Source: Erysipelotrichaceae bacterium (GTDB lineage Bacteria; Bacillota_I; Bacilli_A; RFN20; CAG-826). From it: DNA of 64,000 bases. The position numbers and the translations under genes were made by a program. The DNA lies in the NCBI GenBank assembly GCA_015059185.1, contig SVAY01000003.1, positions 15,251 through 79,250 on the forward strand, written 5' to 3'. Below are positions 9,358-42,433 of this stretch, in pieces. Below the pieces are notes generated by a model, which saw only the letters and a list, made by a program, of their open reading frames with translations, was not told the origin of the DNA and made no database searches. Positions within the stretch are counted from its first letter, which is position 1. Each line of letters begins with the position of its first letter.

Positions 9358-10815
9358 TTATGCTTCAGGATTATATTCTAGTGCTCTAAGAAGCACATAG
9401 CTTGATTCGTGCCAGTGGAAATATAAGGCTCTTTGAATATTGCTTAATGCACCCGCTAAAGACATTACATCTCCAAAGTCTAAATGCATCAATACATTAT
9501 AAAATGTATTACATGTAGTCTTTAAGTCTTCTTCATCGAATTCATAACTAACAAATTTGAGGTATGGTTGCGCGATTTCATATAAGCCACCTTCACTCAC
9601 CACTTTACTCGCTAGTTTAAGCATTTGAGCTGGTGTATCCATCCATCTCTTTTGGAAATCTTCCATAATATAGAATAAAGCGTATTGATCAATAGAGAAG
9701 AAGAGTTCAGTCATAAATCTTGCAGCGGTTTGTACGTGCATGACGTAATGTTCTCTATCTTGAATACCAAATGTTGGGTCATCAGCGGCTAAAATACGGG
9801 AAACAAACACTTGCATAAACTCAGTTTCATTCTTATATTTCTTTGAATCCTTGAAGGCTGGGACTGTATCAATCCAGCACTTCGCTGTTTTATGTTTTTG
9901 ATCATCAGTTAACTGGTCATAAGGGATATCGTTACCACTACTATCCTTAGGATAAGTTTCCGCTGGATAAAGTTCATACATATAATCAGCAAATAATTTA
10001 TCAAAGTCATCTCGTAAGATATCTATGTCTGTTCCAGAACGATATAAACCATATTCTTTTGGTGGGACATTAACAACAACGTCACCACTATTAGAAAGGT
10101 TCCAGATGTTCTTATAATCGTATCTTACGTTTTCTTCACTAAAACAGGCTGGAGCTTCAAATGTATAACAATACATATTTTCTTGCGTGAAGCCAAAGCT
10201 ATTATCATTTAATAACTTAGTGGCAAACATATTGGCAAGCGCTCCACCACGAGAGAATCCGTTAATCCATAATTTAACTTTCTTATTGGCGTAATTTTTC
10301 GCCATATAATCATTAAATTCGACTATCGCGTTATTGGCGGAATATTCAAACCCTTCGTGATTACCTTCTTTACCTAAGGTAACGTTAGATACCCATTCTT
10401 GTGTATAGTCATAACTTCTAAATGATAAGGCAACAACTGTGAAGTCATCAACTTCCCTATCAGCGATATAAAAGCCATAAGTATCTGTTCCACATCCCTT
10501 ATCATATACTTCAGTATAGTAGTGATGATTAAAGTGAATAGCGTTATAGAACTTCTTAGCTTCTTTCTTTTGGCCACTATTAGCAGTCGCGACAAATGAC
10601 ATAAGGGCAAAGTCTTTATTAAACTTTGTTGGAGATTCCCTAAAGTAATCATTTGAATAAGTGAAATGCGCCTTAGTGTCCATATTGTTACCGAAAATGA
10701 AATAATAATCGGTATCAATTTCTTCTGTATCAGGAGCTGGGCCACTGCTACAAGAGGTAGCAATGAGAGGTACCATTAATAATGGTAATAATAGTTTTTT
10801 AAGCTGCATAACCAA
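9358..10815 (-). CDS. Lipoprotein with a class-3 lipase (Lipase_3-like) domain; paralog of 4773..6311.
   Basis: Signal peptide plus lipobox (PLIATSC). The pattern GNHEGF...KLWINGFSRGGALANMFATKL...CYTFEAPACF gives nucleophile motif G-F-S-R-G. Its start overlaps the stop of the giant lipoprotein gene by 17 nt. Confidence 0.6.
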   Translation of the reverse strand: MVMQLKKLLLPLLMVPLIATSCSSGPAPDTEEIDTDYYFIFGNNMDTKAHFTYSNDYFRESPTKFNKDFALMSFVATANSGQKKEAKKFYNAIHFNHHYYTEVYDKGCGTDTYGFYIADREVDDFTVVALSFRSYDYTQEWVSNVTLGKEGNHEGFEYSANNAIVEFNDYMAKNYANKKVKLWINGFSRGGALANMFATKLLNDNSFGFTQENMYCYTFEAPACFSEENVRYDYKNIWNLSNSGDVVVNVPPKEYGLYRSGTDIDILRDDFDKLFADYMYELYPAETYPKDSSGNDIPYDQLTDDQKHKTAKCWIDTVPAFKDSKKYKNETEFMQVFVSRILAADDPTFGIQDREHYVMHVQTAARFMTELFFSIDQYALFYIMEDFQKRWMDTPAQMLKLASKVVSEGGLYEIAQPYLKFVSYEFDEEDLKTTCNTFYNVLMHLDFGDVMSLAGALSNIQRALYFHWHESSYVLLRALEYNPEA

Positions 10816-13800
10816 GTTCTCCTAAAACATATTGAGCGTAAGTTCTTGAATCATACTTATTATCCATATAAGTATTTAACTCATTGATGTGTGCATCTCT
10901 CAATTCATCCGTAATAGTTGTTGGATCAATATTGATATCAACATCAGCATATAAATTACCTGTAACAATCATGTTAACAGAAGCAGTAATACTGGCTTTA
11001 AGGTATTGTAAGAAGGCTTTTGTCTCTTCACTTTCAGTGTGTTTGCCTCCGAATAAAGCAATATCACAATTGCTAAGCATTGTATTATTGAGTAAGTTAT
11101 CTAGGCCAACATTAGCGGTCCAAATACCATATGGGTTTTCATCTGCTGTCCATGTATCAATGTATGGGTCAGTGAATCCAGTTCCAGGTTCATAATAATT
11201 ATAGGACTTTAAGACTTTTGAATATGTTGGTTGATAATCGCTTTCAACATGGTAATTCCACATATTAATGAAATCATCATTTTCTGGAGCGCTTGTTAAC
11301 ATGTTAAGTGTGTCATTATTTAACGCACCTAAACATGTCCACTTGGAATCATCAAATGTTCCTGAGGTATCTTCGATACACTTATAAAGCTTATAATCCA
11401 CTTCTACAAGATCATCGACGACATATGAAGCCGAAGAGTTATATTTAGGATACATTCTTTGGGCATATACATCAGATATACCATCACCATTATTTCTTGG
11501 TTTAATACCAAGACCAAAGTTTAGTAGATAATGGGATAAATTATCCATAAATTGATCCATGGTCAGTGAAATTCTTCTTGTATGACCATTAGATGTTGAT
11601 TCTATAACAACAAATGAATCACGCTTTAAAGCTCCGTCACGATAAATATAATTATCATCTTTATCTTTTACTGGATTACCATAAGAATCGGTAACTAGAA
11701 CTCGTTCATATACTGGAGCTCCATATTGGTCACGCTGTGCTAAATTAGTAACATAAACAGAGAAATTACGTGAGCTACTGGTCCAGTCTAAGTCGCCTCT
11801 ATTTTCACTTACATAATAAGCGACTCTACCAATTAGAGGTACATCAAACCCAATGCTAATTGATGGTATATTAGTCAAATCGAATTTAGCATAATAATCT
11901 TCAACATTGTATGTTTCGTCATTCACTATATGCATGTAAGAACTAATATTAACTGGATCATAATCTGCAAATTGGATATGTCTTTCACTACCCAAGAAAT
12001 CGAAAGATATATCACCTCTAATATTAATGGTGCCGTTAAATGCATAATCGTCATATAAAACAGTGTTGATTAAATGGTCTGCCAATGCAGAAATACTAGT
12101 GAAGTTATAGGCACTAGCTCTATATGTACTAGGAATCTTTTCAATTGATGTATTGGTTTGAGTTAACGATAAGCTGATTGGTTGACCAGTATATCTACCA
12201 CTGACCTTAAGTTCAGCAATATATTTCTTATAAATTGGATTATCATCCTCATCTACGCCAACTTCTTTATCAGCTGTTCTCATAATAACTGTGATTGGTT
12301 CTAAGATATCGTCATCATGTAACTTAAAGAGGTTCTCATTAAGGACAATACGATATGTTTGAGTACCTGCATCATATGTAAAGCTATCAATAACTTTACT
12401 ACGTAATAAGACTTCCATATCGCCACCTAAGATTTGCATTAATAAAGTCTTAGGACCTTCAGTCTTAAAGATTTCCATAATGTTAGCGATTCTACTATCC
12501 TCGCTATTAGCGACTCTAGTAAAGACATCGACTAAATCAAAGACACTACTGAGTTTGAGTGCGCCATACATCTTATCAGCGGCGGCTGGTTCTGCACCAT
12601 GTCCAGTTGGCTTTTCTTCATCAGAATCATAGATAGAATCAACATCACCATAAGAAACATAGATATGACTATTTTCTGCCGCTTCTTCCACTCTTGCTTG
12701 GGCTTCAGGATCATCTGATTGATAATCTTCCATACTAATGAGTTGAGCGTTTACATCAGCCTGGACATAATGGGTTTTACGGCCAGTTGTAATTGCTGCT
12801 TTGATTGATCCTTCATTTGTTTTTGGATCTAAGACACCGTTATCTTTATTAAGTTCGAAGTCGATATCGGCATCGATCATTAATTCATCATAAACACCAC
12901 TTAAGCGATATTTGACGGTCTTTTGGTCACTACTGAAGAGTGATAAGACATCATCTAAGATATCGTTGACATAGTCAAGTGGGACATATGTTTCTGGATT
13001 AACTGGGACGATTGGATCTTGATAATCGTCTTGTTCGATAGCGACACTACCACTTAAGTAATAGCCTAAGGCATAGAAGTTATTAACATATAAGTGATGG
13101 ATACCTTTACTACCGATATCTAATCCGATAGAGACGGTAGCACCTGAATCCTTAACACCAATTAAACTACCCTTAAATGTTAAGACTAATTCTCTTTCGT
13201 TATTTTCTAATGTTCTAACGTTGCTAGAAACATAATATCTAAATAAATCTAAATAATTACCACTACTTAAGATGTTATTAAGTGGGGTTTGATTACCTGT
13301 TGATACATTACCGCTAGGAATCACTGCGTCCACAAGTTTCTTAAATGTTGGGTTTTCCGCAGAATAGTGATTAATAACTTTAGTTAAGTCATCTAACTTG
13401 GTTAAGTCGTATCTCACTCTAAAGTCTTCATGAATATTATCGTGAGCGTAATAGAAATATGCTGTCTTATTGACTAAACGGATATCAAATAATGAATTGA
13501 ATAAATACTCTTCACTATTATCTTTCATTTTAGAAACACTACCTTTAGCTTCAAATAAGGCATTCTTGAAGTCGCTTAAGTCGTGTAAATCTACATCAAG
13601 TGTACCATTAAATACTGCTAATGGAGCAACATCGGTACGACGTGAGACATCAACATCAAAGACTAAGTGAGCTTTCTTATTTTCCATTAAGTCTTCGATT
13701 TGATCGATAACAGCCTTTTGATAATCTTTACCTAAATCTTTAACATATCCAGTTAAGACATTGATATCATCTGCACCAATCCAGCCACCTGCTGGGATTT

Positions 13801-16800
13801 CTTGAGCTTTGAAATCGGTTACTTCAGTTGGAACTGGAGAAGTTTCATCTAATAATTCAAAGTTAATGGCGACTGGTTTAGTTTCCACTGTCGCACCACC
13901 AACGATAGAAACAATCTCGTGATTATCATTAAAGGTAATAGTTAATGTTGGGTTATTATCTAAGCCGAGTTCACTGCCATTGACCTCAATCACTAATTTC
14001 TCAGGTTCAGTTGCAGTTTTTTCGTAATGCTTAATACCATTTTCAAGGAAGTAATCCTTATATAATAAGGAAACAATATCAAATCCTTCACTTGTAGTTT
14101 GTTCAGTTTCATCTTTCTTAGCAAACATATCGGTTAAGTTACCAATGAACTTAGAAAGATATTCGTTGAGATAACTATCTTCACCACTAATCATTTCTTG
14201 AATGTCACTGGTAATCTTTTGAATTGTCGCTTCTTCAATACTTAGTCTCACCGCATCTTCTACTTCACCATTTTTGGTATACATGATGTAGCAGGTTGAG
14301 CCGTTATTACTGACATTAATGACATGGATATCACGGTGATTTTCTTCGTCTTCTTGACCTTGGAATTTGATATAAACATCATAGACACCGTTTTCTTTAG
14401 AGAGATCTAGATTCACATAAGCATCAAGAATCATGTCGTTATATGTGGAATTAGTGATTTCAAAGATTACTTTCTTTTCACTAATAATGTTCTTGATTTG
14501 ATTGATAACGTATTTAACATTTGCGGCGTTGATATAGTCGCTGGTATTGATAGTACTAGCTTCACTATAATCGCGTAAGGCTACTTCAAAGTCGAGCTTA
14601 TAATCGCCATATTCAATGCCTTTAACACCGATAGAGTTAATACCGTTCTCATCGATATTAAGAATCAAATCAAATGTGGTTGTGCTTTCTGCGTTAAGTA
14701 AGCCATTTGATAATGTTAAGGTAATGACGTTACCATCGTTTTCACTGACCATTACACCCTTGAAGGCTTTGATGATCTCTTGATATTCACCATTATTTAA
14801 GTATTCAAGGATTGGTAAAGAAATCGCGTTCACTGTTTCACTTACGTTAGCCGCATCTCTACCAAGTAATTCATTTAATGAATTAATGATTTCTTGTACT
14901 TCAGAACGCTTACACGCTAACTTAATGGCTTTACCTAACTTCGCGGATAATAGCTTTTCGCCAGTTGGATTACCCTCACCATCTTTAATATCTTGATAAC
15001 CAATTAATAATTCAAGATCACGATCAGTAATAACATGGGTGGTTTCATCTTCTTCTTGAGAGAGGATATGGCCACTGACCACCATATTAAGTTGATCAAG
15101 TAAATCTTCTTGATCGTTAAGTTTATCTCTTAATCCGATATCAGCTTTACCGTTACTGACACTGAAGACAGTATCATATGTATCAGAAGCATTCTTCTTA
15201 GAGAGGGTGCCACTGAAATCGAGTCCGATTTGTTTAGTTTCATAAATATTGGTTAATTGTTCGATGAACTTGAAGGTACCATTGGTAGACTTGCTAGCCA
15301 TATACTTTGCAATTGTTGATAAATTATCAACACGTTCAAAGTCGCTAGTATCAGTAATGTATCTTCTAGAGCCGTCTGCCCCTTTCATCATAATCTTTGC
15401 GTCAACTTCAAAGTCACCATATTGGGTGGCAATTCTCACACTATCAATCTTGTCATTCTTAAGATGGATTTCTAAGAGTAAGTTCTTATTTAAACCTAAT
15501 AAATCTTTATCAAGTTCTATTGTATAGTCGTTAGCATCTTCAATTTCTAATCTAAGGATTGATTCATCTCTAAGGATAGCAAACATATCGCCATGCATAA
15601 CTTTGGCTAAAGTATCACTTGTCGCGTTAGCAATAATGGTGCCAATAGGACCGAGATTTTCTCCACCTTCTTCACTTCCTTGATTGAAGGCTTCCATAAT
15701 TGAATTATAAATAGAAAGGATAGAATCATAACTTGCAACAGCCTTAACTGGTGAAGTTGGAGCTACATCCTTATTATCTTGATAGACGTAATAAGCATAT
15801 AAGTCATTCTTCTTATTCGCGTCTTCATATGTATCAAGTTTAAGGGTATGAATATGATCATTGAAGTCTTTGACTTCCACATCAAGTCCACCCTTTATTG
15901 TGTTCTTTAAATTAAGGGAAGCGTTACCGTTAAGAGTGAGGTTCTTGTTATTTGAAAGATTCTTTACCTTCACGTCTAAACCTAAATCAAATTCCATCGC
16001 ACGATAATACACGCCGACATCTTTAATGATTTCGTCTAGATTATCTAAAACGCTATATTGGTCTTTGTTAATACGTTTGATACCAGTAAATTCGGTGAAG
16101 GTAAATGTTCCATCAACGATATAAGTATTGATATCAACGTGAGACATAGTTAATGAAGTAATGGTTTCATCGTTAAGGTTAAGTCTAATATAACCATGAC
16201 CACTACCACCAAGGAGGTAGTTATCAACATCAACTTCAATATAATTGGTAGTAAAATTAATTGTTCCGTATTTAGTGATATCACGATATTTAGCATCGGT
16301 AATGATATCTAAGATTGGATATTCTTTACCACTTGCCCCAAAGATGAGGTCAAAGATATTGATACCAAAGATATCGCTATCACCTAAGACTTCCCATAAA
16401 TCACTTAATCCCGCATTGGTGTAAGCAAGTTTATATGGATCTCTACCATTATTGAGGTAGTAATCTAAATAGATACATTCATCACGATATTGACCATTAT
16501 ATTTAGTCTTATAATCATCATGGCCTTCTGTTGCTGGATCATTGATATAAATATCACCTTCAAGGTTTACCACTGTATCTTTTAAGTCCATTTGTAGGAC
16601 ACCTGTGGTATAGCCTAAATAGACAATATTATCTGGAGTAGCGCTTTCATAATGAGACAATTCTAACTTATAGTTAGTCGCCACTTTTTCTTCATCTAAG
16701 ATGTTCCTAATCTTTCTTAATGCACCAAAGTATGTTGAAACATCAATATATGGTTTAGCTTCTGTTTCAGGAGAAGTAATTGGATTAGTTAAACTATCTA

Positions 16801-17512
16801 AGATGTTAGTATTCATCTTCACTCCAATGGTGAAGTCTTGATATTTGATGCCAGTGATTTCAATTGAGGTCAGTTTATAATCTGTATCACTAGTAAGAGT
16901 TAAATCAGGTTGATCGCCTGTTGTATGCGCGACGTATTCATAATATGTTCCTTTATCGGTGAAGGTCATATTAGCGACATTGGTGATGATTTCTGCAATG
17001 CCACTTGTGGTTAAGTTAGTGACGTTCTTTTCTTCTTCACTACTCTCTTCCCCTTCGCCAAGGACGAGGTCTAATAGTTCACCAAAGTCATCAGTCTTAA
17101 GTTTGAGGTTACGGTTACTAATGCTTAAGTAGGCAGTATCATCTAAATATGTCATATCGAAGTCAACGACAGGGAGTTTTTCTTTTTCAGTCATTGAAGC
17201 ATCGTTCATATCAAGTTTAAATGAAGCATCAAATGCAAGATTTTCTAAATTTTCCATTGAGGCTGTGGCTTTACCATAGACACGGTAATTATCAGCCTTT
17301 TCTTTATTAGGATCTTTATAGCTGACATTGATATCTAAATCAGCTTCTAAATATCTTGTGTCAAATAAGGTGTTAACAAGCTTATCTTGACTGCTTTCTT
17401 CAATTGGTTCAAAGGATGGTTGGGTCGGTGTGACACCACACGCCGCCAAAGCAAAACCTCCAAAACCTAGTAACCCTAGTCCACCTAGGAGCCAGAATCG
17501 TGACTTCTTCAT
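10799..17512 (-). CDS. Giant surface lipoprotein of about 2237 aa. It is rich in D, N, T and Y and probably rich in beta-strand, with no domain recognisable by eye.
   Basis: The N-terminus reads MKKSRFWLLGGLGLLGFGGFALAAC (signal peptide plus LAAC lipobox). A GGAGG Shine-Dalgarno sequence lies 8 nt before this ATG, so the longer ORF-track start at 17551 is probably a spurious 5' extension. The open reading frame is uninterrupted for 6.7 kb. Confidence 0.7.
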   Translation of the reverse strand: MKKSRFWLLGGLGLLGFGGFALAACGVTPTQPSFEPIEESSQDKLVNTLFDTRYLEADLDINVSYKDPNKEKADNYRVYGKATASMENLENLAFDASFKLDMNDASMTEKEKLPVVDFDMTYLDDTAYLSISNRNLKLKTDDFGELLDLVLGEGEESSEEEKNVTNLTTSGIAEIITNVANMTFTDKGTYYEYVAHTTGDQPDLTLTSDTDYKLTSIEITGIKYQDFTIGVKMNTNILDSLTNPITSPETEAKPYIDVSTYFGALRKIRNILDEEKVATNYKLELSHYESATPDNIVYLGYTTGVLQMDLKDTVVNLEGDIYINDPATEGHDDYKTKYNGQYRDECIYLDYYLNNGRDPYKLAYTNAGLSDLWEVLGDSDIFGINIFDLIFGASGKEYPILDIITDAKYRDITKYGTINFTTNYIEVDVDNYLLGGSGHGYIRLNLNDETITSLTMSHVDINTYIVDGTFTFTEFTGIKRINKDQYSVLDNLDEIIKDVGVYYRAMEFDLGLDVKVKNLSNNKNLTLNGNASLNLKNTIKGGLDVEVKDFNDHIHTLKLDTYEDANKKNDLYAYYVYQDNKDVAPTSPVKAVASYDSILSIYNSIMEAFNQGSEEGGENLGPIGTIIANATSDTLAKVMHGDMFAILRDESILRLEIEDANDYTIELDKDLLGLNKNLLLEIHLKNDKIDSVRIATQYGDFEVDAKIMMKGADGSRRYITDTSDFERVDNLSTIAKYMASKSTNGTFKFIEQLTNIYETKQIGLDFSGTLSKKNASDTYDTVFSVSNGKADIGLRDKLNDQEDLLDQLNMVVSGHILSQEEDETTHVITDRDLELLIGYQDIKDGEGNPTGEKLLSAKLGKAIKLACKRSEVQEIINSLNELLGRDAANVSETVNAISLPILEYLNNGEYQEIIKAFKGVMVSENDGNVITLTLSNGLLNAESTTTFDLILNIDENGINSIGVKGIEYGDYKLDFEVALRDYSEASTINTSDYINAANVKYVINQIKNIISEKKVIFEITNSTYNDMILDAYVNLDLSKENGVYDVYIKFQGQEDEENHRDIHVINVSNNGSTCYIMYTKNGEVEDAVRLSIEEATIQKITSDIQEMISGEDSYLNEYLSKFIGNLTDMFAKKDETEQTTSEGFDIVSLLYKDYFLENGIKHYEKTATEPEKLVIEVNGSELGLDNNPTLTITFNDNHEIVSIVGGATVETKPVAINFELLDETSPVPTEVTDFKAQEIPAGGWIGADDINVLTGYVKDLGKDYQKAVIDQIEDLMENKKAHLVFDVDVSRRTDVAPLAVFNGTLDVDLHDLSDFKNALFEAKGSVSKMKDNSEEYLFNSLFDIRLVNKTAYFYYAHDNIHEDFRVRYDLTKLDDLTKVINHYSAENPTFKKLVDAVIPSGNVSTGNQTPLNNILSSGNYLDLFRYYVSSNVRTLENNERELVLTFKGSLIGVKDSGATVSIGLDIGSKGIHHLYVNNFYALGYYLSGSVAIEQDDYQDPIVPVNPETYVPLDYVNDILDDVLSLFSSDQKTVKYRLSGVYDELMIDADIDFELNKDNGVLDPKTNEGSIKAAITTGRKTHYVQADVNAQLISMEDYQSDDPEAQARVEEAAENSHIYVSYGDVDSIYDSDEEKPTGHGAEPAAADKMYGALKLSSVFDLVDVFTRVANSEDSRIANIMEIFKTEGPKTLLMQILGGDMEVLLRSKVIDSFTYDAGTQTYRIVLNENLFKLHDDDILEPITVIMRTADKEVGVDEDDNPIYKKYIAELKVSGRYTGQPISLSLTQTNTSIEKIPSTYRASAYNFTSISALADHLINTVLYDDYAFNGTINIRGDISFDFLGSERHIQFADYDPVNISSYMHIVNDETYNVEDYYAKFDLTNIPSISIGFDVPLIGRVAYYVSENRGDLDWTSSSRNFSVYVTNLAQRDQYGAPVYERVLVTDSYGNPVKDKDDNYIYRDGALKRDSFVVIESTSNGHTRRISLTMDQFMDNLSHYLLNFGLGIKPRNNGDGISDVYAQRMYPKYNSSASYVVDDLVEVDYKLYKCIEDTSGTFDDSKWTCLGALNNDTLNMLTSAPENDDFINMWNYHVESDYQPTYSKVLKSYNYYEPGTGFTDPYIDTWTADENPYGIWTANVGLDNLLNNTMLSNCDIALFGGKHTESEETKAFLQYLKASITASVNMIVTGNLYADVDINIDPTTITDELRDAHINELNTYMDNKYDSRTYAQYVLGELGYAA

Positions 17513-17535
17513 ATACATAACCTCCAAGTATATGC

Positions 17536-17570
17536 GCGTAAAAAAAGACAAAAAACTCTCAAAGCGAGAG
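17536..17570 (-). promoter_or_regulatory. Terminator-like hairpin plus U-tract in the 5' leader of the giant lipoprotein gene (candidate attenuator).
   Basis: On the minus strand CTCTCGCTTTGAGAG is followed by TTTTTTGTCTTTTTTT. It lies between TATAAT-like boxes (TTATATAATC / CACTATAATC) and the GGAGG Shine-Dalgarno sequence. Confidence 0.3.
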
Positions 17571-19666: not shown

Positions 19667-19713
19667 GTTTTTGTATACTACAGTAAACACTTTTATCACT
19701 TTTAGATATTATT
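19667..19713. repeat. Left copy of an approximately 47-bp direct repeat (TTTTTGTATACTACAGTAAACACTTTTATCACTTTTAGATATTATTT) flanking the DUF3990/DUF3791-like cassette.
   Basis: It is about 90% identical to the copy at 20990-21036. It overlaps the stop codon of the 19709..20332 gene. Confidence 0.7.
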
Positions 19714-38701: not shown

Positions 38702-39584
38702 AATTCATTATTTTTCTATTTTTAATTGCTTCAAATTTAAGTGATTCATCTCTTTTGCTTTTATCCGTTTCTTCATAAGCTTTTTTAAGATATTTTTTTC
38801 TACTAGATATTAACCCTATTAGGTAGTTCTTTAATCTAGTCTCTATATGATATTCATCTACCCATTTAAGTGACTTCGCTACGGTTTCGTTTTTTAACAC
38901 ATATTGCGGTCCAATATTTGCAAACTTCAAGGCCTTTTTAACTTCATTAATGTCGCTCACTTCATCAAAAAAAGCATCCATAATATCAAAATTATATGAA
39001 TCCGCAATTTCCCCTTTTAGCACATCATATTGAGCAAATTTCTTGTCAAAATATTCTCTAATAAAAACACGGTCTCTTTCTTCTTTAATCTTATAACGAT
39101 TGTAACCGATAAAAAGCACCCAGTCTTCTTCTCCTAAAACCTTATCATCGTAAAAAGAATAAATCTTAGTTTTCAAAATATCTTTTTCATTAAAACGATA
39201 TATAACAGGATGGGGATATGTTATCACATAACTAATAGCAGTTTTAAAAGTTTCACTAAGATAAAAACCATTTCCAAAGTCTATTGGCTCATTAATATTT
39301 CTAGTTGTTGATATATCTCCGATAATCCCTCCCACTTTTGATCCGTGAAAAAGGTAACCATCATTTCCTTCTATATCAAACAAATCATATATATCAAGAT
39401 TGTTATCATTTATTAAAGAAATAATCTTATTAAATACTATTGGTGAAGGATTATTATGACGATTAATATAATTATTAATTTGTCTAGGTTCAACACCCAA
39501 AAAATCTGCTAAAGTGGCCGATGAATAATTCAATACATTCATTAATCTTTTGATTACAAAAGAAATATTTAATTCTGTTTTCAT
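38691..39584 (-). CDS. Fusion of an XRE-type HTH to a DUF3990-like (predicted ART fold) domain
   Basis: The N-terminal HTH is SSATLADFLGVEPRQINNYINRHNNPS. It is followed by LFHGSKVGG...IDFGNGFYLSETFKTA...DWVLFIGYNRY, paralogous to the 20332..20974 product. Confidence 0.5.
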   Translation of the reverse strand: MKTELNISFVIKRLMNVLNYSSATLADFLGVEPRQINNYINRHNNPSPIVFNKIISLINDNNLDIYDLFDIEGNDGYLFHGSKVGGIIGDISTTRNINEPIDFGNGFYLSETFKTAISYVITYPHPVIYRFNEKDILKTKIYSFYDDKVLGEEDWVLFIGYNRYKIKEERDRVFIREYFDKKFAQYDVLKGEIADSYNFDIMDAFFDEVSDINEVKKALKFANIGPQYVLKNETVAKSLKWVDEYHIETRLKNYLIGLISSRKKYLKKAYEETDKSKRDESLKFEAIKNRKIMNYGR

Positions 39585-39794
39585 ACTTCAATTATAACAT
39601 TTTTGTAAATATTTCCTAATTATTCCAGATTTTACTCAAATATTTTAATACATTAATAATTATATTAATATATATAAATATATATATTAATAACATTTTA
39701 TAAAATATTTCCTATGTACATCTAATCGTATTAGATATCATTTATTAAAAAGGAAAAAGAAGAATGGATTCTTGTAAAAAAATGTAGCTAATAA

Positions 39795-41435
39795 CTATCT
39801 ATATACTTCATCCTTAAATGCACTATTTTTATGTGAAAATGATAATCCAATTAACAATATCCTTTTAGAATTAATACGTAGCGCATCTGAATAGTATTTA
39901 TGTTCTTTAATTTGGTTTAAAGCTTTAGAAGCGGATTTTTCTAAATCACTTATTGAAGGTCTGTTTTTTAAGTATTTAAGTTCTAAAATAATTGAATAAT
40001 CGTTATTTGATATCGATCTAATCACTATGTCGCACCTTCCTTGGCCTTCTTCAATTTCACTGCTGACAAGAGCGTCGTCCATCAAAACAGATCCCAAGGT
40101 GACAATCATAATTTGATATGCTTTTTCAGAATTTAAATCTAAATATGAAAGCCTATTTTGAATATAAAAAGCAAGATTGGAAACAAATTCTTTAGTATTA
40201 AATGATATTAACGATTCCTTTATCTTTTTTAGAATCATAAAATTATCTTTATTCACTAATGTTTCCATGATTTCTTTGTTAAAGGCAATTTTAATTTCCT
40301 CATTCACTATCCTTACTGTATAGTAATTGCTTGGAAAATTAGGATGTATAGATAAATAACCACTAAACGCTAATAAAGAATATAGATTGATATTGTTATC
40401 AACGAAATCATAACTTATATTTTCATTGATTGTTGTATTAACATTTTCTCCATTAGTTAAAGATACTAAATCACTATTTACGTCACCACTTAATAGCTTC
40501 ACGGTCTCATGTAACAATTTATATGATCCTGTATTCGTCCAATAAGCCTTATATACAAATATATTTGATATAAAATTTAAAATTGACCAGGGATTATATA
40601 CTTCTTTATTTTGGAAAAAATATCCACCATACCACCTCTTCACTTCGTTATAATCACCATTGAAGTTTGAATATCTCAATAGTTTTTCAACCTCATCATC
40701 AGTAAAGCCGAAAAACTCATCTTTATTAGATAAGATATTATTAACCATCAAATTGTTTAAATCTGAAAAGATAGAAGAATGTGATACTTGGGTTATTCCA
40801 GTTACGATAGCTTTATATAGATAAGGGTTGCTTTTAATCGCATTACCTAAAAAGTCTTTCATAAGGTCTCTAGCATCATCAAAATAGCCATTCACATATG
40901 CGGTTTCTAAAGGTGTATCGTATTCATCAATTAAAATAATAGTCTTGACATTATTTTTCTTATATAACTTTTTAGTAAGGTAATATAAAGATTCTTTTAA
41001 TTCATTATTAGTACATTTACGATTTATGACATTATTTTCAAAATCATTTTCAGGGTTAATTAAATCACTATAAATATCAGATATCTTAAACTTCAATAAT
41101 TCAATATAATCAGCATAACTACGTCCGTTTATACCCTTTAAGTTAAGATGTATAACGTTATATTTATTTATATATTCAGCATATCTATGATCTTTATTAA
41201 TAATATTAGTGTCTTTAAATAAGGTTAATGAATCTTCATTGATATCAAAAAAATATTTACATAAAGAAAGCATTAATGATTTTCCAAATCTACGTGGACG
41301 GGTAAAGAGAAATGTCGCGGATTCAGGGGAATTAATTATATCTTCTAAAAACAATGTTTTATCCACATAATAACAATCTTTTTTTACTGTTTTGAAATCA
41401 TCAACGCCTATTGGCAAATACAAATTTGGAATCAT
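39795..41435 (-). CDS. AAA-ATPase-like (PF09820-type) N-terminal domain fused to a PD-(D/E)xK nuclease-like (PDDEXK_9/DUF1703) C-terminal domain
   Basis: The N-terminus LPIGVDDFKTVKKDCYYVDKT...TRPRRFGKSL is the hallmark of the predicted AAA-ATPase family. The C-terminus CDIVIRSISNNDYSIILELKY has the (D/E)-x-K pattern. The start is set at MIPNLYLPIG, which has an AGAGGT Shine-Dalgarno sequence 7 nt upstream. The ORF-track start at 41498 lies inside the upstream tandem repeats. Confidence 0.6.
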   Translation of the reverse strand: MIPNLYLPIGVDDFKTVKKDCYYVDKTLFLEDIINSPESATFLFTRPRRFGKSLMLSLCKYFFDINEDSLTLFKDTNIINKDHRYAEYINKYNVIHLNLKGINGRSYADYIELLKFKISDIYSDLINPENDFENNVINRKCTNNELKESLYYLTKKLYKKNNVKTIILIDEYDTPLETAYVNGYFDDARDLMKDFLGNAIKSNPYLYKAIVTGITQVSHSSIFSDLNNLMVNNILSNKDEFFGFTDDEVEKLLRYSNFNGDYNEVKRWYGGYFFQNKEVYNPWSILNFISNIFVYKAYWTNTGSYKLLHETVKLLSGDVNSDLVSLTNGENVNTTINENISYDFVDNNINLYSLLAFSGYLSIHPNFPSNYYTVRIVNEEIKIAFNKEIMETLVNKDNFMILKKIKESLISFNTKEFVSNLAFYIQNRLSYLDLNSEKAYQIMIVTLGSVLMDDALVSSEIEEGQGRCDIVIRSISNNDYSIILELKYLKNRPSISDLEKSASKALNQIKEHKYYSDALRINSKRILLIGLSFSHKNSAFKDEVYR

Positions 41436-41469
41436 ACTTAATACCTCTACAATCATAGAATAATATGCT

Positions 41470-41570
41470 TTCGTGCAAAAATCAACTTCTTCGTGCAAAA
41501 ATCAACTTATTCGTGCAAAAGTGCATTTCTTCGTGCACATTCGTGCAATTTCGTACAGTCTTGTGCAAAT
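41470..41570. repeat. Degenerate tandem-repeat array (about 20-bp units decaying to about 10 bp) carrying 6-7 copies of the core TTCGTGCA(A) on the plus strand (TGCACGAA on the minus strand). It lies immediately upstream of the AAA-ATPase-like/PD-(D/E)xK gene.
   Basis: The units TTCGTGCAAAAATCAACTTC, TTCGTGCAAAAATCAACTTA, TTCGTGCAAAAGTGCATTTC, TTCGTGCACAT, TCGTGCAATT, TCGTACAGTC and TTGTGCAAAT are read directly from the sequence. Confidence 0.7.
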
Positions 41571-41617
41571 CAAATAATATTACTGTTTATAAGGATTATT
41601 AATATAGAATTAAAGAC

Positions 41618-42433
41618 ATGGAATACTTCAAACTAAATAACGGCAATCTTATACCTAAACTCGCTTATGGCACATGGCTTATCAAGAATTCTGATGCCTA
41701 TAAATGTGTCTCTATGGCGCTTGAAGCAGGATATCGTCACATCGATACCGCGCAAGTGTATAGAAACGAATGCGAAGTAGGTAGAGCAATTAGAGAATAT
41801 AATCTTCCACGTGACGATATTTATCTAGTAAGTAAAGTTAATGCTTGTCATAAAGATTATAAGTCCACTAAAAGAAGTATTTATAACTCTCTTAGGCGAT
41901 TAGGAGTCGATTACATCGACTTAATGTTAATTCACTGCCCTCAACCATGGAACGAATATGGTGGTAAGAATCACTATTATAAAGAAAATGTAGAGGTTTG
42001 GAGAGCACTTGAAGAAGCTTATAAACAAGGAAAAGTTAAAGCAATAGGTGTTTCTAACTTTAATAAGAAAGATACCGCGAATATTTTGGATCACTGTGAG
42101 ATAAGACCGATGGTGAACCAAATAGAGGTTCATATTTATAACACACCTCTAGATTTAATTAATTACTGCAAGAATAACGATATTATTGTTGAATCCTACT
42201 CCCCAATTGCTCACGGAGCAGCGCTTGATGATAAGGTTATCAAAGATATGGCGAACAAATATCATGTATCAGTTGCTCAATTATGCATTAAATACACTCT
42301 TCAATTAGATACAGTATCTATTCCTAAAGCAAGTTCTAAAGAACATATGCTAGATAATATGAAATTAGATTTTGAAATCAATGAAGAAGATATGAAATAT
42401 TTATCCAAGTTAAATAAAAACATCATTTGGTAA
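41618..42433 (+). CDS. Aldo/keto reductase (AKR) family oxidoreductase
   Basis: The 271-aa product has AKR signatures (GYRHIDTAQVY, LVSK, IHCP). Confidence 0.8.
   Translation: MEYFKLNNGNLIPKLAYGTWLIKNSDAYKCVSMALEAGYRHIDTAQVYRNECEVGRAIREYNLPRDDIYLVSKVNACHKDYKSTKRSIYNSLRRLGVDYIDLMLIHCPQPWNEYGGKNHYYKENVEVWRALEEAYKQGKVKAIGVSNFNKKDTANILDHCEIRPMVNQIEVHIYNTPLDLINYCKNNDIIVESYSPIAHGAALDDKVIKDMANKYHVSVAQLCIKYTLQLDTVSIPKASSKEHMLDNMKLDFEINEEDMKYLSKLNKNIIW

What the first reader, a model, noticed from the sequence alone, without database searches (positions are those of the whole stretch)
41462..41580. Iteron-like tandem array of TGCACGAA motifs upstream of the AAA-ATPase-like/PD-(D/E)xK gene
Six to seven copies of TTCGTGCA(A) (minus strand TTGCACGAA) occur within 110 bp. 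The first two form exact 20-bp tandem units (TTCGTGCAAAAATCAACTT[C/A]), and later units decay. The array ends 35 nt before the gene's Shine-Dalgarno sequence and start, so it overlaps the promoter. The six-frame ORF track even extends the reading frame through it. Such arrays are typical of regulator binding-site clusters (iterons or operators). Alternatively they are slipped-strand variable promoters. On the minus strand the TTGCAC units also look like repeated -35-like hexamers.
Basis: seen in the sequence. Interest (0 to 1): 0.5.

Follow-up and report, generated by a model that had tools for sequence, protein, structure and literature searches.

The report
Phased repeat operator of ATPase-nuclease gene
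A row of seven short DNA repeats, spaced exactly one or two helical turns apart, sits on the promoter of an uncharacterised ATPase-nuclease gene. Every close relative of that gene carries the same kind of row with its own repeat sequence, so it is very likely a protein-binding control site and gives the first experimental handle on a large family of unknown function.

Summary
TTCGTGCA (gene strand: TGCACGAA) occurs five times exactly, at 41470, 41490, 41510, 41530 and 41540. Two decayed copies follow at 41550 and 41561. In register on the gene strand the spacing is 20, 20, 20, 10, 10, 10. These are the only exact copies in the 64 kb window.

The array lies 34 nt upstream of the true start (ATG 41435) of an AAA-ATPase_like/PDDEXK_9 (DUF1703) gene and overlaps its core promoter.

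Ten of ten sampled lineages of the close clade (39-65% identity) have the same architecture. Each has 4-8 same-strand copies at 10 or 20 (±1) bp. In 8 of 11 loci scored (the ten clade loci plus L127) the best -10 hexamer starts 7-9 nt after the last copy. The core differs by lineage: TGCACGA, TGCCCGA/T, TGCACCCA, TGCATCCT, TGCCCCAAA, TGCAAGAT, CTCCAAGA. Spacers and neighbouring genes are not conserved. Only 1 of 71 distant family members has such an array, and no shuffle or control region does.

Best reading: an operator/iteron-like array for cooperative binding on one DNA face, probably by the gene's own ORC/STAND-like product (autoregulation). Binding itself is inferred, not shown. Phase variation, translation through the array, an RNA element and the neighbouring HTH protein as binder are not supported. 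I found no prior description.

The parts
41470..41567 (-). Whole direct-repeat array. Seven copies of TGCACGA(A) read on the minus (gene) strand, spaced 10, 10, 10, 20, 20, 20 bp from distal to proximal.
   Evidence: Architecture conserved in homologous loci.
41470..41477 (-). Repeat 7 (proximal, exact TGCACGAA). It lies in the core promoter, either in the spacer of TTGATT-17-TATTCT or overlapping the -35 of TTTGCA-16-TATGAT.
41490..41497 (-). Repeat 6 (exact)
41510..41517 (-). Repeat 5 (exact). A partial copy TGCAC lies at 41521-41525 between repeats 4 and 5. L005 has TGCA at the same relative position.
41530..41537 (-). Repeat 4 (exact)
41540..41547 (-). Repeat 3 (exact)
41550..41557 (-). 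Repeat 2 (one mismatch, TGTACGAA)
41561..41567 (-). Repeat 1 (distal, decayed, TGCACAA)
41452..41462 (-). Candidate -10 elements. TATTCT (41462-41457) is at the position homologous to the TATAAT of the orthologues. TATGAT (41457-41452) is the alternative.
   Evidence: Consensus matches only; the transcription start site has not been mapped.
41444..41448 (-). Shine-Dalgarno AGAGG, 8 nt before ATG 41435
   Evidence: sequence
39795..41435 (-). AAA-ATPase_like + PDDEXK_9 (DUF1703) gene, 546 aa. Contains Walker A RPRRFGKS, Walker B DEYD and nuclease D469...E485-x-K487.
   Evidence: Pfam. Invariant columns. AF2 model pLDDT 89.6. Fold matches.

Best explanation
The array is a cis-regulatory operator (iteron-like) that belongs to the AAA-ATPase_like/PDDEXK_9 gene at 39795-41435. 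Seven same-strand copies of TGCACGA(A), set 10 or 20 bp apart, present one recognition site per one or two helical turns. This allows a protein oligomer to bind cooperatively along roughly one face of about 100 bp of DNA.

The proximal copy lies inside the core promoter, with the -10 about 7-8 nt after it, so occupancy controls transcription of the gene. Because the only thing conserved next to such arrays is the gene itself, and the core sequence changes along with the protein lineage, the binder is most likely the gene's own product. That product is an ORC/Cdc6- or STAND-like NTPase fused to a PD-(D/E)xK nuclease, and the result would be autoregulation.

I favour autorepression, because several loci have near-consensus -35/-10 elements with the last repeat in the spacer.

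Shown: the existence, statistics, geometry, conservation and lineage specificity of the array, and the domain architecture of the protein.

Inferred: that a protein binds, that the binder is the gene product, and the sign of regulation.
For: (1) Non-random and unique. All 5 exact 8-mers of the window lie within 78 bp, and no other phased array occurs in the window.

(2) Association with the gene, not with the divergent aldo-keto reductase. The orthologues P0002 (65% identity, L002-4) and P0003 (56%, L005) have TGCACGA(T/A) x5 at spacings 10/19/20/20 and 20/10/20/20. Their spacers have diverged and their neighbours are unrelated.

(3) Clade-wide architecture with lineage-specific cores:
- P0016: TGCCCGA x4
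- P0018: TGCCCGT x6
- P0005: TGCACCCA x6-7
- P0013: TGCATCCT x7
- P0014: TGCCCCAAA x7
- P0023: TGCAAGAT x6-7
- P0019: CTCCAAGA x6
Core similarity follows the protein clusters.

(4) Uniform test. At least 4 phased copies are found in 10/10 clade loci, 1/71 distant relatives, 0/82 shuffles and 0/67 downstream controls.

(5) Promoter geometry. In 8/11 loci the best -10 starts 7-9 nt after the last core, and six of these are perfect TATAAT. In L206 and L209 the last repeat sits in the spacer of TTGACG/TTGACT-16/17-TATAAT.

(6) Core copies are confined to the array in every locus.

(7) No partner gene is conserved across the loci.

(9) It is not an RNA element. There is no Rfam hit and the fold z-score is -0.5.
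Against: - No binding data exist.
- The protein has no Pfam DNA-binding domain. Its winged-helix-like segment (residues ~297-378) is net acidic, about -2.8, while only the nuclease domain is net basic.
- Co-variation of core and protein could also arise from joint vertical inheritance with a trans factor.
- A sliding-window comparison found no obvious specificity-determining segment.
- L210 and L211 lack a -35 element, which would fit activation rather than repression, so the sign of regulation is open.
- P0024 (39% identity) has at most a weak array.
Confidence: 0.5

Rival explanations
1. The array is an operator for a separate trans-acting regulator encoded elsewhere. An example would be a response regulator of the LytTR or OmpR/PhoB/SARP type, which bind phased direct repeats at or near the -35 region. 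Under this reading the ATPase-nuclease is only the regulated target.
For: - Such regulators are the classical binders of 10-11 bp or 20-22 bp phased direct repeats (established knowledge).
- A constant 7-9 nt gap between the last repeat and the -10, and the missing -35 in L210/L211, resemble activator-dependent promoters.
- The metagenome scan showed that 3 x TGCACGAA at 20 bp also occurs between MHYT-LytTR regulator genes and CO-dehydrogenase genes. So a LytTR-type domain can plausibly read this kind of array.
- The ATPase-nuclease has no recognisable HTH.
Against: - No regulator gene is conserved next to the arrays.
- No LytTR or OmpR regulator was found among 20 mid-size ORFs of the window.
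- The core differs between lineages and tracks the ATPase-nuclease phylogeny.
- The genes sit in variable, island-like contexts, so each host would need its own dedicated regulator.
- No second array lies within 64 kb.
Confidence: 0.25
2. The array is mainly an assembly or recognition site for the protein's main activity rather than a transcriptional operator. Examples would be a loading platform, or a centromere- or origin-like site, on which the ORC/TnsC-like ATPase polymerises, or a cognate site of the PD-(D/E)xK nuclease. Any effect on the promoter would be secondary.
For: - The fold resembles ORC/Cdc6 bound to origin DNA, and TnsC and MuB, which form filaments on DNA.
- The strict 10.0-bp register over about 100 bp resembles parC/ParR centromeres and iterons (established knowledge).
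- The nuclease catalytic residues are intact.
- The nuclease domain is the only net-basic part of the protein.
Against: - The position relative to the -10 hexamer is fixed across loci, which points to promoter control.
- There is no plasmid, phage or transposon context and no second (inverted) end.
- DnaA boxes are not enriched. The one perfect box, at 41359, is a by-product of YVDK codons.
- The neighbours are ordinary chromosomal genes in several loci.
Confidence: 0.15
3. The array is a slipped-strand, phase-variable promoter, in which gain or loss of 10/20-bp units switches expression.
For: The first two units are near-identical 20-bp duplicates. Arrays therefore do turn over by duplication on evolutionary time scales.
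Against: - Independent contigs from different samples carrying the same gene have identical copy numbers. These are L002/3/4, L206/7/8 (one spacer SNP only), L211/12/13, L214/15, L216/17 and window/L001.
- The units lie upstream of, not between, the -35 and -10, so copy number would not change promoter spacing.
- Spacers within an array are mostly different, which is a poor substrate for slippage.
Confidence: 0.04
4. The repeats are simply translated as the N-terminus of a longer protein (start TTG 41498), or they are a chance or neutral duplication.
For: An ORF is open from 41498. The database gene call (P0001, 553 aa) starts 7 codons upstream of ATG 41435.
Against: - The orthologues' open frames extend only 10-15 codons upstream, and their N-termini align with ATG 41435.
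- An SD AGAGG precedes ATG 41435.
- The arrays of the other lineages lie upstream of perfect TATAAT boxes.
- Chance is excluded.
Confidence: 0.02

Closest known systems
Plasmid/phage replication iterons with Rep autoregulation (e.g. F RepE, P1 RepA, pPS10; phage origins such as the one seen in L318)
   Same: Short conserved cores are embedded in ~20-bp units. They are directly repeated in one orientation, next to the gene of the presumed binder, and their sequence is lineage-specific.
   Different: - There is no Rep-type initiator. The gene is AAA-ATPase_like/PDDEXK_9.
- There is no plasmid or phage context, no AT-rich unwinding element, and no DnaA-box enrichment.
- The array is locked to the -10 hexamer.
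- 10-bp and 20-bp spacings are mixed.
- The real cores are no more frequent in viral contigs than permuted controls (against 95-96).
parC/ParR type II partition centromeres (R1: 10 x 11 bp; pSK41: 4 x 20 bp) and omega-repressor heptad arrays
   Same: Phased direct repeats at about one or two helical turns overlap the promoter of the downstream operon. They are bound cooperatively and give autoregulation.
   Different: There is no ParM/ParR or omega gene. The downstream gene is a single 546-aa ATPase-nuclease. The loci are chromosomal and have unrelated neighbours.
SARP / OmpR-PhoB / LytTR response-regulator sites
   Same: Direct repeats have 10-11 or 20-22 bp periodicity. The last repeat lies a fixed ~8 bp from the -10 (SARP), or the repeats replace the -35.
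   Different: - No such regulator is linked to the arrays.
- The period is 10.0/20.0 rather than 11/21-22.
- The cores differ between lineages of the target gene.
- SARPs are actinobacterial.
Initiator and STAND ATPases that bind site arrays: archaeal Orc1/Cdc6-ORB next to their own gene, DnaA boxes in the dnaA promoter, MalT boxes
   Same: The protein's NTPase module is of the ORC/Cdc6/STAND type. These proteins oligomerise on repeated sites, often next to or upstream of their own gene, and autoregulate.
   Different: - There is no sequence-level membership in those families.
- The C-terminal domain is a PD-(D/E)xK nuclease.
- The winged-helix-like part is acidic.
- ORB and DnaA boxes are longer or differently arranged.
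DUF1703 family (PF09820 + PF08011) as described by Knizewski et al. 2007 (PMC1913061) and Siozios et al. 2019 (PMC6387759)
   Same: The gene is a full-length member, with the variant Walker A RPRRFGKS, Walker B DEYD and the PD-(D/E)xK motifs.
   Different: Those papers describe only domains and gene-family expansions. No cis element, no DNA specificity and no function is reported. The array is restricted to one clade of the family.

Membership tests
DUF1703 (AAA-ATPase_like PF09820 + PDDEXK_9 PF08011) - the gene the array belongs to | Both Pfam domains score above the gathering thresholds, in N-to-C order | tested here: met
   PF09820 at 140.6 bits (cut-off 26.1) over residues 8-223; PF08011 at 53.8 bits (cut-off 25.5) over residues 436-540.
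DUF1703 (AAA-ATPase_like PF09820 + PDDEXK_9 PF08011) - the gene the array belongs to | Variant Walker A RPRRFGKS, Walker B DEYD, and nuclease D...E-x-K | tested here: met
   invariant columns R46-S53, D170-D173, D469, E485 and K487. This matches PMC1913061.
Plasmid/phage replication-origin iterons | Direct repeats of ~17-22 bp period in one orientation | tested here: met
   20-bp period for the proximal four copies, 10-bp period for the distal copies.
Plasmid/phage replication-origin iterons | Adjacent Rep/initiator gene of a known replication family, and a replicon (plasmid/phage) context | tested here: not met
   no Rep domain. The neighbours are an aldo-keto reductase, GNAT, ClpB-like and YloV-like genes. 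There is no PHROG hit. The homologous loci sit between housekeeping genes.
Plasmid/phage replication-origin iterons | Flanking AT-rich unwinding element and DnaA boxes | tested here: not met
   DnaA-box matches are not enriched (25 against 22 expected). The single perfect box lies in the coding sequence and is not conserved.
parC/ParR-type centromere-operator | Phased direct repeats overlapping the operon promoter | tested here: met
parC/ParR-type centromere-operator | Downstream actin-like/Walker partition ATPase plus a small RHH adaptor gene | tested here: not met
   a single 546-aa DUF1703 gene, with no small ORF between the array and the gene.
Phase-variable (slipped-strand) promoter repeats | Repeat number varies between closely related isolates or within populations | tested here: not met
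   six sets of replicate contigs have identical copy number. The samples are small and no read-level data were available.
Phase-variable (slipped-strand) promoter repeats | The repeat tract lies between -35 and -10, or in the coding sequence, so that unit number changes spacing or frame | tested here: not met
   only the last copy lies in the core promoter, and the remaining copies are upstream.
LytTR / OmpR-PhoB / SARP regulator binding sites | Direct repeats at 21-22 bp (LytTR) or 11 bp (OmpR/SARP), with a cognate regulator gene linked or present | tested here: inconclusive
   The period here is 10/20 ±1. No such regulator was found in the 20 mid-size window ORFs scanned or next to any homologous locus. 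The rest of the genome is not available.
Autoregulatory operator of the gene's own product | Sequence-specific binding of the product to the repeats, and dependence of promoter activity on it | not testable with these tools
   Support is indirect only: co-occurrence and lineage-specific cores, and no conserved partner gene.
Known RNA family / structured leader | A covariance-model hit or a significantly stable fold | tested here: not met
   no relevant Rfam hit; fold z-score -0.5.

The most novel reading that the evidence does not exclude
The DUF1703 ATPase-nuclease is itself a programmable sequence reader. Each lineage would recognise its own 7-9 bp core and polymerise, ORC/TnsC-like, on copies phased at 10/20 bp. 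The promoter array would then be both its operator and a chromosomal copy of the kind of repeated target it acts on elsewhere, for example iteron-bearing plasmids or phage origins. That would make this clade a new class of repeat-array-sensing nuclease whose specificity can be read off its own promoter.
Probability: 0.15. Interest if true: 0.85.

Novelty: new variant of a known kind. Interest (0 to 1): 0.6.

Why it matters
PF09820/PF08011 (DUF1703) proteins number in the thousands across bacteria, archaea and symbionts. One search here returned over 7,900 relatives. The papers that name the family in the library I searched give no function for it and describe no cis element.

A conserved, lineage-specific DNA array at the promoter of one clade predicts a cognate DNA sequence for each protein. 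This turns the question "what does this family do?" into direct experiments: gel shifts, footprints and reporter swaps between TGCACGA, TGCCCGA and TGCATCCT arrays.

The array is also a clean natural example of concerted change of all copies of an operator together with its gene. That is useful for studying how protein-DNA specificity evolves.

Tried and rejected
(1) Regulon or enrichment search. Almost all are plain 10/20-bp satellites. None carries a DUF1703 gene, so the scan is uninformative for this question.

(2) The single-protein scan of genome contigs found no close relative. The alignment scan returned only distant relatives, which lack arrays.

(3) The idea that the arrays mimic phage or plasmid iterons. 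Viral scans with the real cores gave 2, 15 (degenerate pattern) and 4 hits, including origin-like arrays in L318 and L312. Permuted control cores gave 2 and 4 hits. There is no enrichment, so I rejected this as evidence.

(4) A specificity-determining region. Within-clade against between-clade identity along the protein gave no clear peak. The net charge of the winged-helix-like segment is negative.

(5) PADLOC, NCBIfam, PHROGs and PDB sequence searches of the protein returned nothing.

(6) DnaA box or origin. This was rejected.

(7) An RNA element. This was rejected.

(8) Spo0A, WalR or another global-regulator box, compared from memory. The window core TGCACGAA is not a 0A box (TGTCGAA), and the cores of the other lineages are unrelated to it.

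(9) Plasmid tblastn returned only relatives below 38% identity, and I did not pursue them.

Full report
**1. The observation**

The region 41462-41580 lies in a 182-bp divergent intergenic region. On one side is a minus-strand gene, 39795-41435. On the other is a plus-strand aldo-keto reductase, 41618-42433.

TTCGTGCA is exact at 41470, 41490, 41510, 41530 and 41540. TTCGTACA follows at 41550 and TTGTGCA at 41561-41567. Read on the gene strand, the core is TGCACGA(A). In register, the seven copies are spaced 10, 10, 10, 20, 20, 20 bp from distal to proximal.

These five are the only exact copies of the 8-mer in 64 kb. About 1.0 copy is expected by chance, and 0 of 100 shuffles reach 5. No other phased array of this kind exists in the window.

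**2. Which gene and which start**

The minus-strand gene is a full-length AAA-ATPase_like (PF09820) + PDDEXK_9 (PF08011) protein, formerly called DUF1703. Its orthologues begin MxxNLYLPIG, and their frames are open for only 10-15 codons further upstream.

ATG 41435 is preceded by AGAGG at the right distance. The array is therefore non-coding, and its proximal end is 34 nt from the start codon.

The source is an uncultured Erysipelotrichaceae MAG. A metagenome contig, L001, is identical across the region.

**3. Comparative evidence (the key result)**

Two orthologues were examined first: P0002 at 65% identity and P0003 at 56%. They sit in unrelated neighbourhoods with no aldo-keto reductase. 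Both carry five TGCACGA(T/A) copies on the coding strand directly upstream, at spacings 10/19/20/20 and 20/10/20/20. Their spacers have diverged.

I then sampled seven more lineages of the same clade, at 39-46% identity. Each has its own core:

| Protein | Locus | Core | Copies |
|---|---|---|---|
| P0016 | L206-8 | TGCCCGA | 4 |
| P0018 | L209 | TGCCCGT | 6 |
| P0005 | L210 | TGCACCCA | 6-7 |
| P0013 | L211-13 | TGCATCCT | 7 |
| P0014 | L216/17 | TGCCCCAAA | 7 |
| P0023 | L218 | TGCAAGAT | 6-7 |
| P0019 | L214/15 | CTCCAAGA | 6 |

In every case the copies are on the gene strand, spaced 10 or 20 (±1) bp, and the last copy lies 40-61 nt before the ATG.

Core similarity follows the protein clusters:
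- P0001, P0002 and P0003 share TGCACGA.
- P0016 and P0018 have TGCCCG(A/T).
- P0005 and P0013 have TGCA(C/T)CC(A/T).

I applied a uniform criterion: a 7-mer with at most 1 mismatch, at least 4 copies, and all spacings 10 or 20 ±1, within the 200 nt upstream. Results:
- 10/10 clade loci score 5-8 copies.
- P0024 (39% identity) scores only 3.
- 1/71 distant relatives from named genomes passes (L127, a rumen Bacilli MAG, with GTAAAAATGA at 10 bp).
- 0/82 shuffles pass.
- 0/67 downstream control segments pass.

The distant relatives on viral contigs that I inspected also lack arrays. In each locus the core occurs essentially only in the array.

**4. Promoter geometry**

In 8 of 11 loci the best -10-like hexamer starts 7-9 nt after the last 7-mer core, and six of these are perfect TATAAT. 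In L206 and L209 the last copy sits in the spacer of TTGACG/TTGACT-16/17-TATAAT. In L002 it sits in the spacer of TTGCAA-17-TATAAT.

The window has two candidates. TTGATT-17-TATTCT is at the homologous position. TTTGCA-16-TATGAT would make the last copy overlap the -35. Either way the proximal copy lies in the core promoter. These are consensus matches, and the transcription start is not mapped.

**5. What it is not**

- It is not an RNA element. There is no Rfam hit and the fold z-score is -0.5.
- It shows no sign of phase variation. Replicate contigs from different samples have identical copy numbers.
- It is not a transposon end. There is no inverted second array.
- It is not an origin. There is no Rep gene and no DnaA-box enrichment. 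The one perfect box, at 41359, is produced by the YVDK codons and is not conserved.
- It is not controlled by the neighbouring HTH-DUF3990 gene, which is absent from all the other loci.

**6. The protein**

- Then CED-4 and NB-ARC proteins, Avs3, BrxC, MalT, ORC2, Cdc6 bound to origin DNA, and TnsC.
- The CinB PD-(D/E)xK nuclease, for the C-terminal domain.

Foldseek ranks ORC/Cdc6 and MalT among its top hits. The Walker A/B and nuclease catalytic residues are invariant. This agrees with Knizewski et al. 2007 (PMC1913061).

The papers I found that name the family give no function for it and mention no cis element. One cue does not support DNA binding by the winged-helix-like part. That segment is net acidic, and only the nuclease domain is net basic.

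**7. Mechanism**

Cores conserved against diverged spacers, a strict one- or two-turn register, a fixed distance to the -10, and lineage-specific concerted change of all copies are the signature of a cooperative protein-binding array.

Because no other gene is conserved beside it, and the genes sit in variable, island-like contexts, the most economical binder is the encoded ORC/STAND-like ATPase-nuclease itself. That would make the array an autoregulatory operator. For a potentially toxic nuclease driven by near-consensus promoters, I favour autorepression. The missing -35 in L210 and L211 keeps activation possible.

My estimates:
- About 0.85 that it is a protein-binding regulatory array of this gene.
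- About 0.5 for the full statement, including self-binding.

The rivals are a separate phased-repeat regulator (0.25), an assembly or target site with only secondary promoter effects (0.15), phase variation (0.04), and translation or chance (0.02).

In this genome the distal copies end 51 nt before the aldo-keto reductase start, so that gene might be co-regulated. This is inference only and is not conserved elsewhere.

**8. Comparison with known systems, and novelty**

The array works like iterons with Rep autoregulation, like parC/ParR centromere-operators, and like SARP/PhoB/LytTR repeat sites. At the protein level the closest parallels are Orc1/Cdc6-ORB, the dnaA promoter with DnaA, and MalT boxes.

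It fails the defining tests for membership in each of these. There is no Rep, ParMR or response-regulator gene, no replicon context, and a 10.0/20.0-bp rather than 11/21-22-bp period. It is best described as a new variant of a known kind, a phased operator array attached to a family with no known function or DNA specificity.

An attempt to link the cores to phage iterons failed its control. Real cores gave 2 and 4 hits in viral contigs, and permuted cores also gave 2 and 4.

Noticed in passing
L011:2380-2460, L070:1551-1630, L121:3722-3800 (also L006, L060, L065/L103): In high-GC metagenome contigs, three TGCACGAA copies at exactly 20-bp spacing are followed by a hairpin (TGCGTCAG...CTGACGCA). 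They lie between the 3' end of an MHYT-LytTR regulator gene and the start of a CO-dehydrogenase flavoprotein (FAD_binding_5/CO_deh_flav_C) gene. This is probably the LytTR operator of a cox-type operon. The system is unrelated and shares the 7-mer only because of how the search was designed.
   Followed up: partly
window 37790-39584 (-) and 19709-20979 (-): Downstream of the ATPase-nuclease gene lies an HTH_3-DUF3990 (ART/PARP-like) fusion followed by a 303-aa protein with no Pfam hit. The DUF3990 part matches the PADLOC candidate systems PDC-M13B, M42A and M10A. A second DUF3990 gene with an adjacent HTH_26 protein lies at 19709-20979. GC content drops to 0.25-0.29 over 38-42 kb, which suggests a small acquired island.
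   Followed up: partly
window 39639-39709: An AT-only tandem repeat (units ~8-12 or 22 nt, TAATATATTAA-like) lies in the gap between the stop codon of the ATPase-nuclease gene and the next gene.
   Followed up: no
window 41359-41367: The only perfect DnaA box (TTATCCACA) in the window lies 103 nt from the array, inside the coding sequence. It is generated by the conserved YVDK codons. It is also present in L005 but absent from eight other orthologues, so it is incidental.
   Followed up: yes
window 41436-41456: The public gene call for this protein (P0001, 553 aa) starts at ATG 41456, seven codons upstream of the start supported by the orthologue N-termini and the SD (ATG 41435). That upstream ATG overlaps the candidate -10 TATGAT.
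   Followed up: partly
window 22746-23461 (+): A RelB antitoxin / PIN-domain toxin pair.
   Followed up: no
window 26329-26410: A 9/18/27-bp periodic repeat (TATCACCCT-like) lies inside a 435-aa minus-strand ORF. It is presumably a coding repeat.
   Followed up: no
window 10799-17551 (-): A very large ORF of 2250 aa, not examined.
   Followed up: no
L318:4900-5270: A low-GC viral contig carries a dense two-orientation cluster of TTGCCCCA/TTGCCCT iterons next to a D5-type primase-helicase gene. This looks like a typical phage origin. The core coincides with the TTGCCCCAAA core of P0014, but permuted-core controls show that such coincidences are expected.
   Followed up: partly
L216:1042-1335, L218:942-1175, L209:4635-5696, L211:1-749: Clade members often sit beside defence or mobility genes. 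These include AbiEii/DUF6088 plus HTH_3, type I HsdM plus HTH_3, a phage integrase plus DUF2726, and PDDEXK_2 and ATPase_2 genes. This hints at an island or defence context for the family.
   Followed up: no
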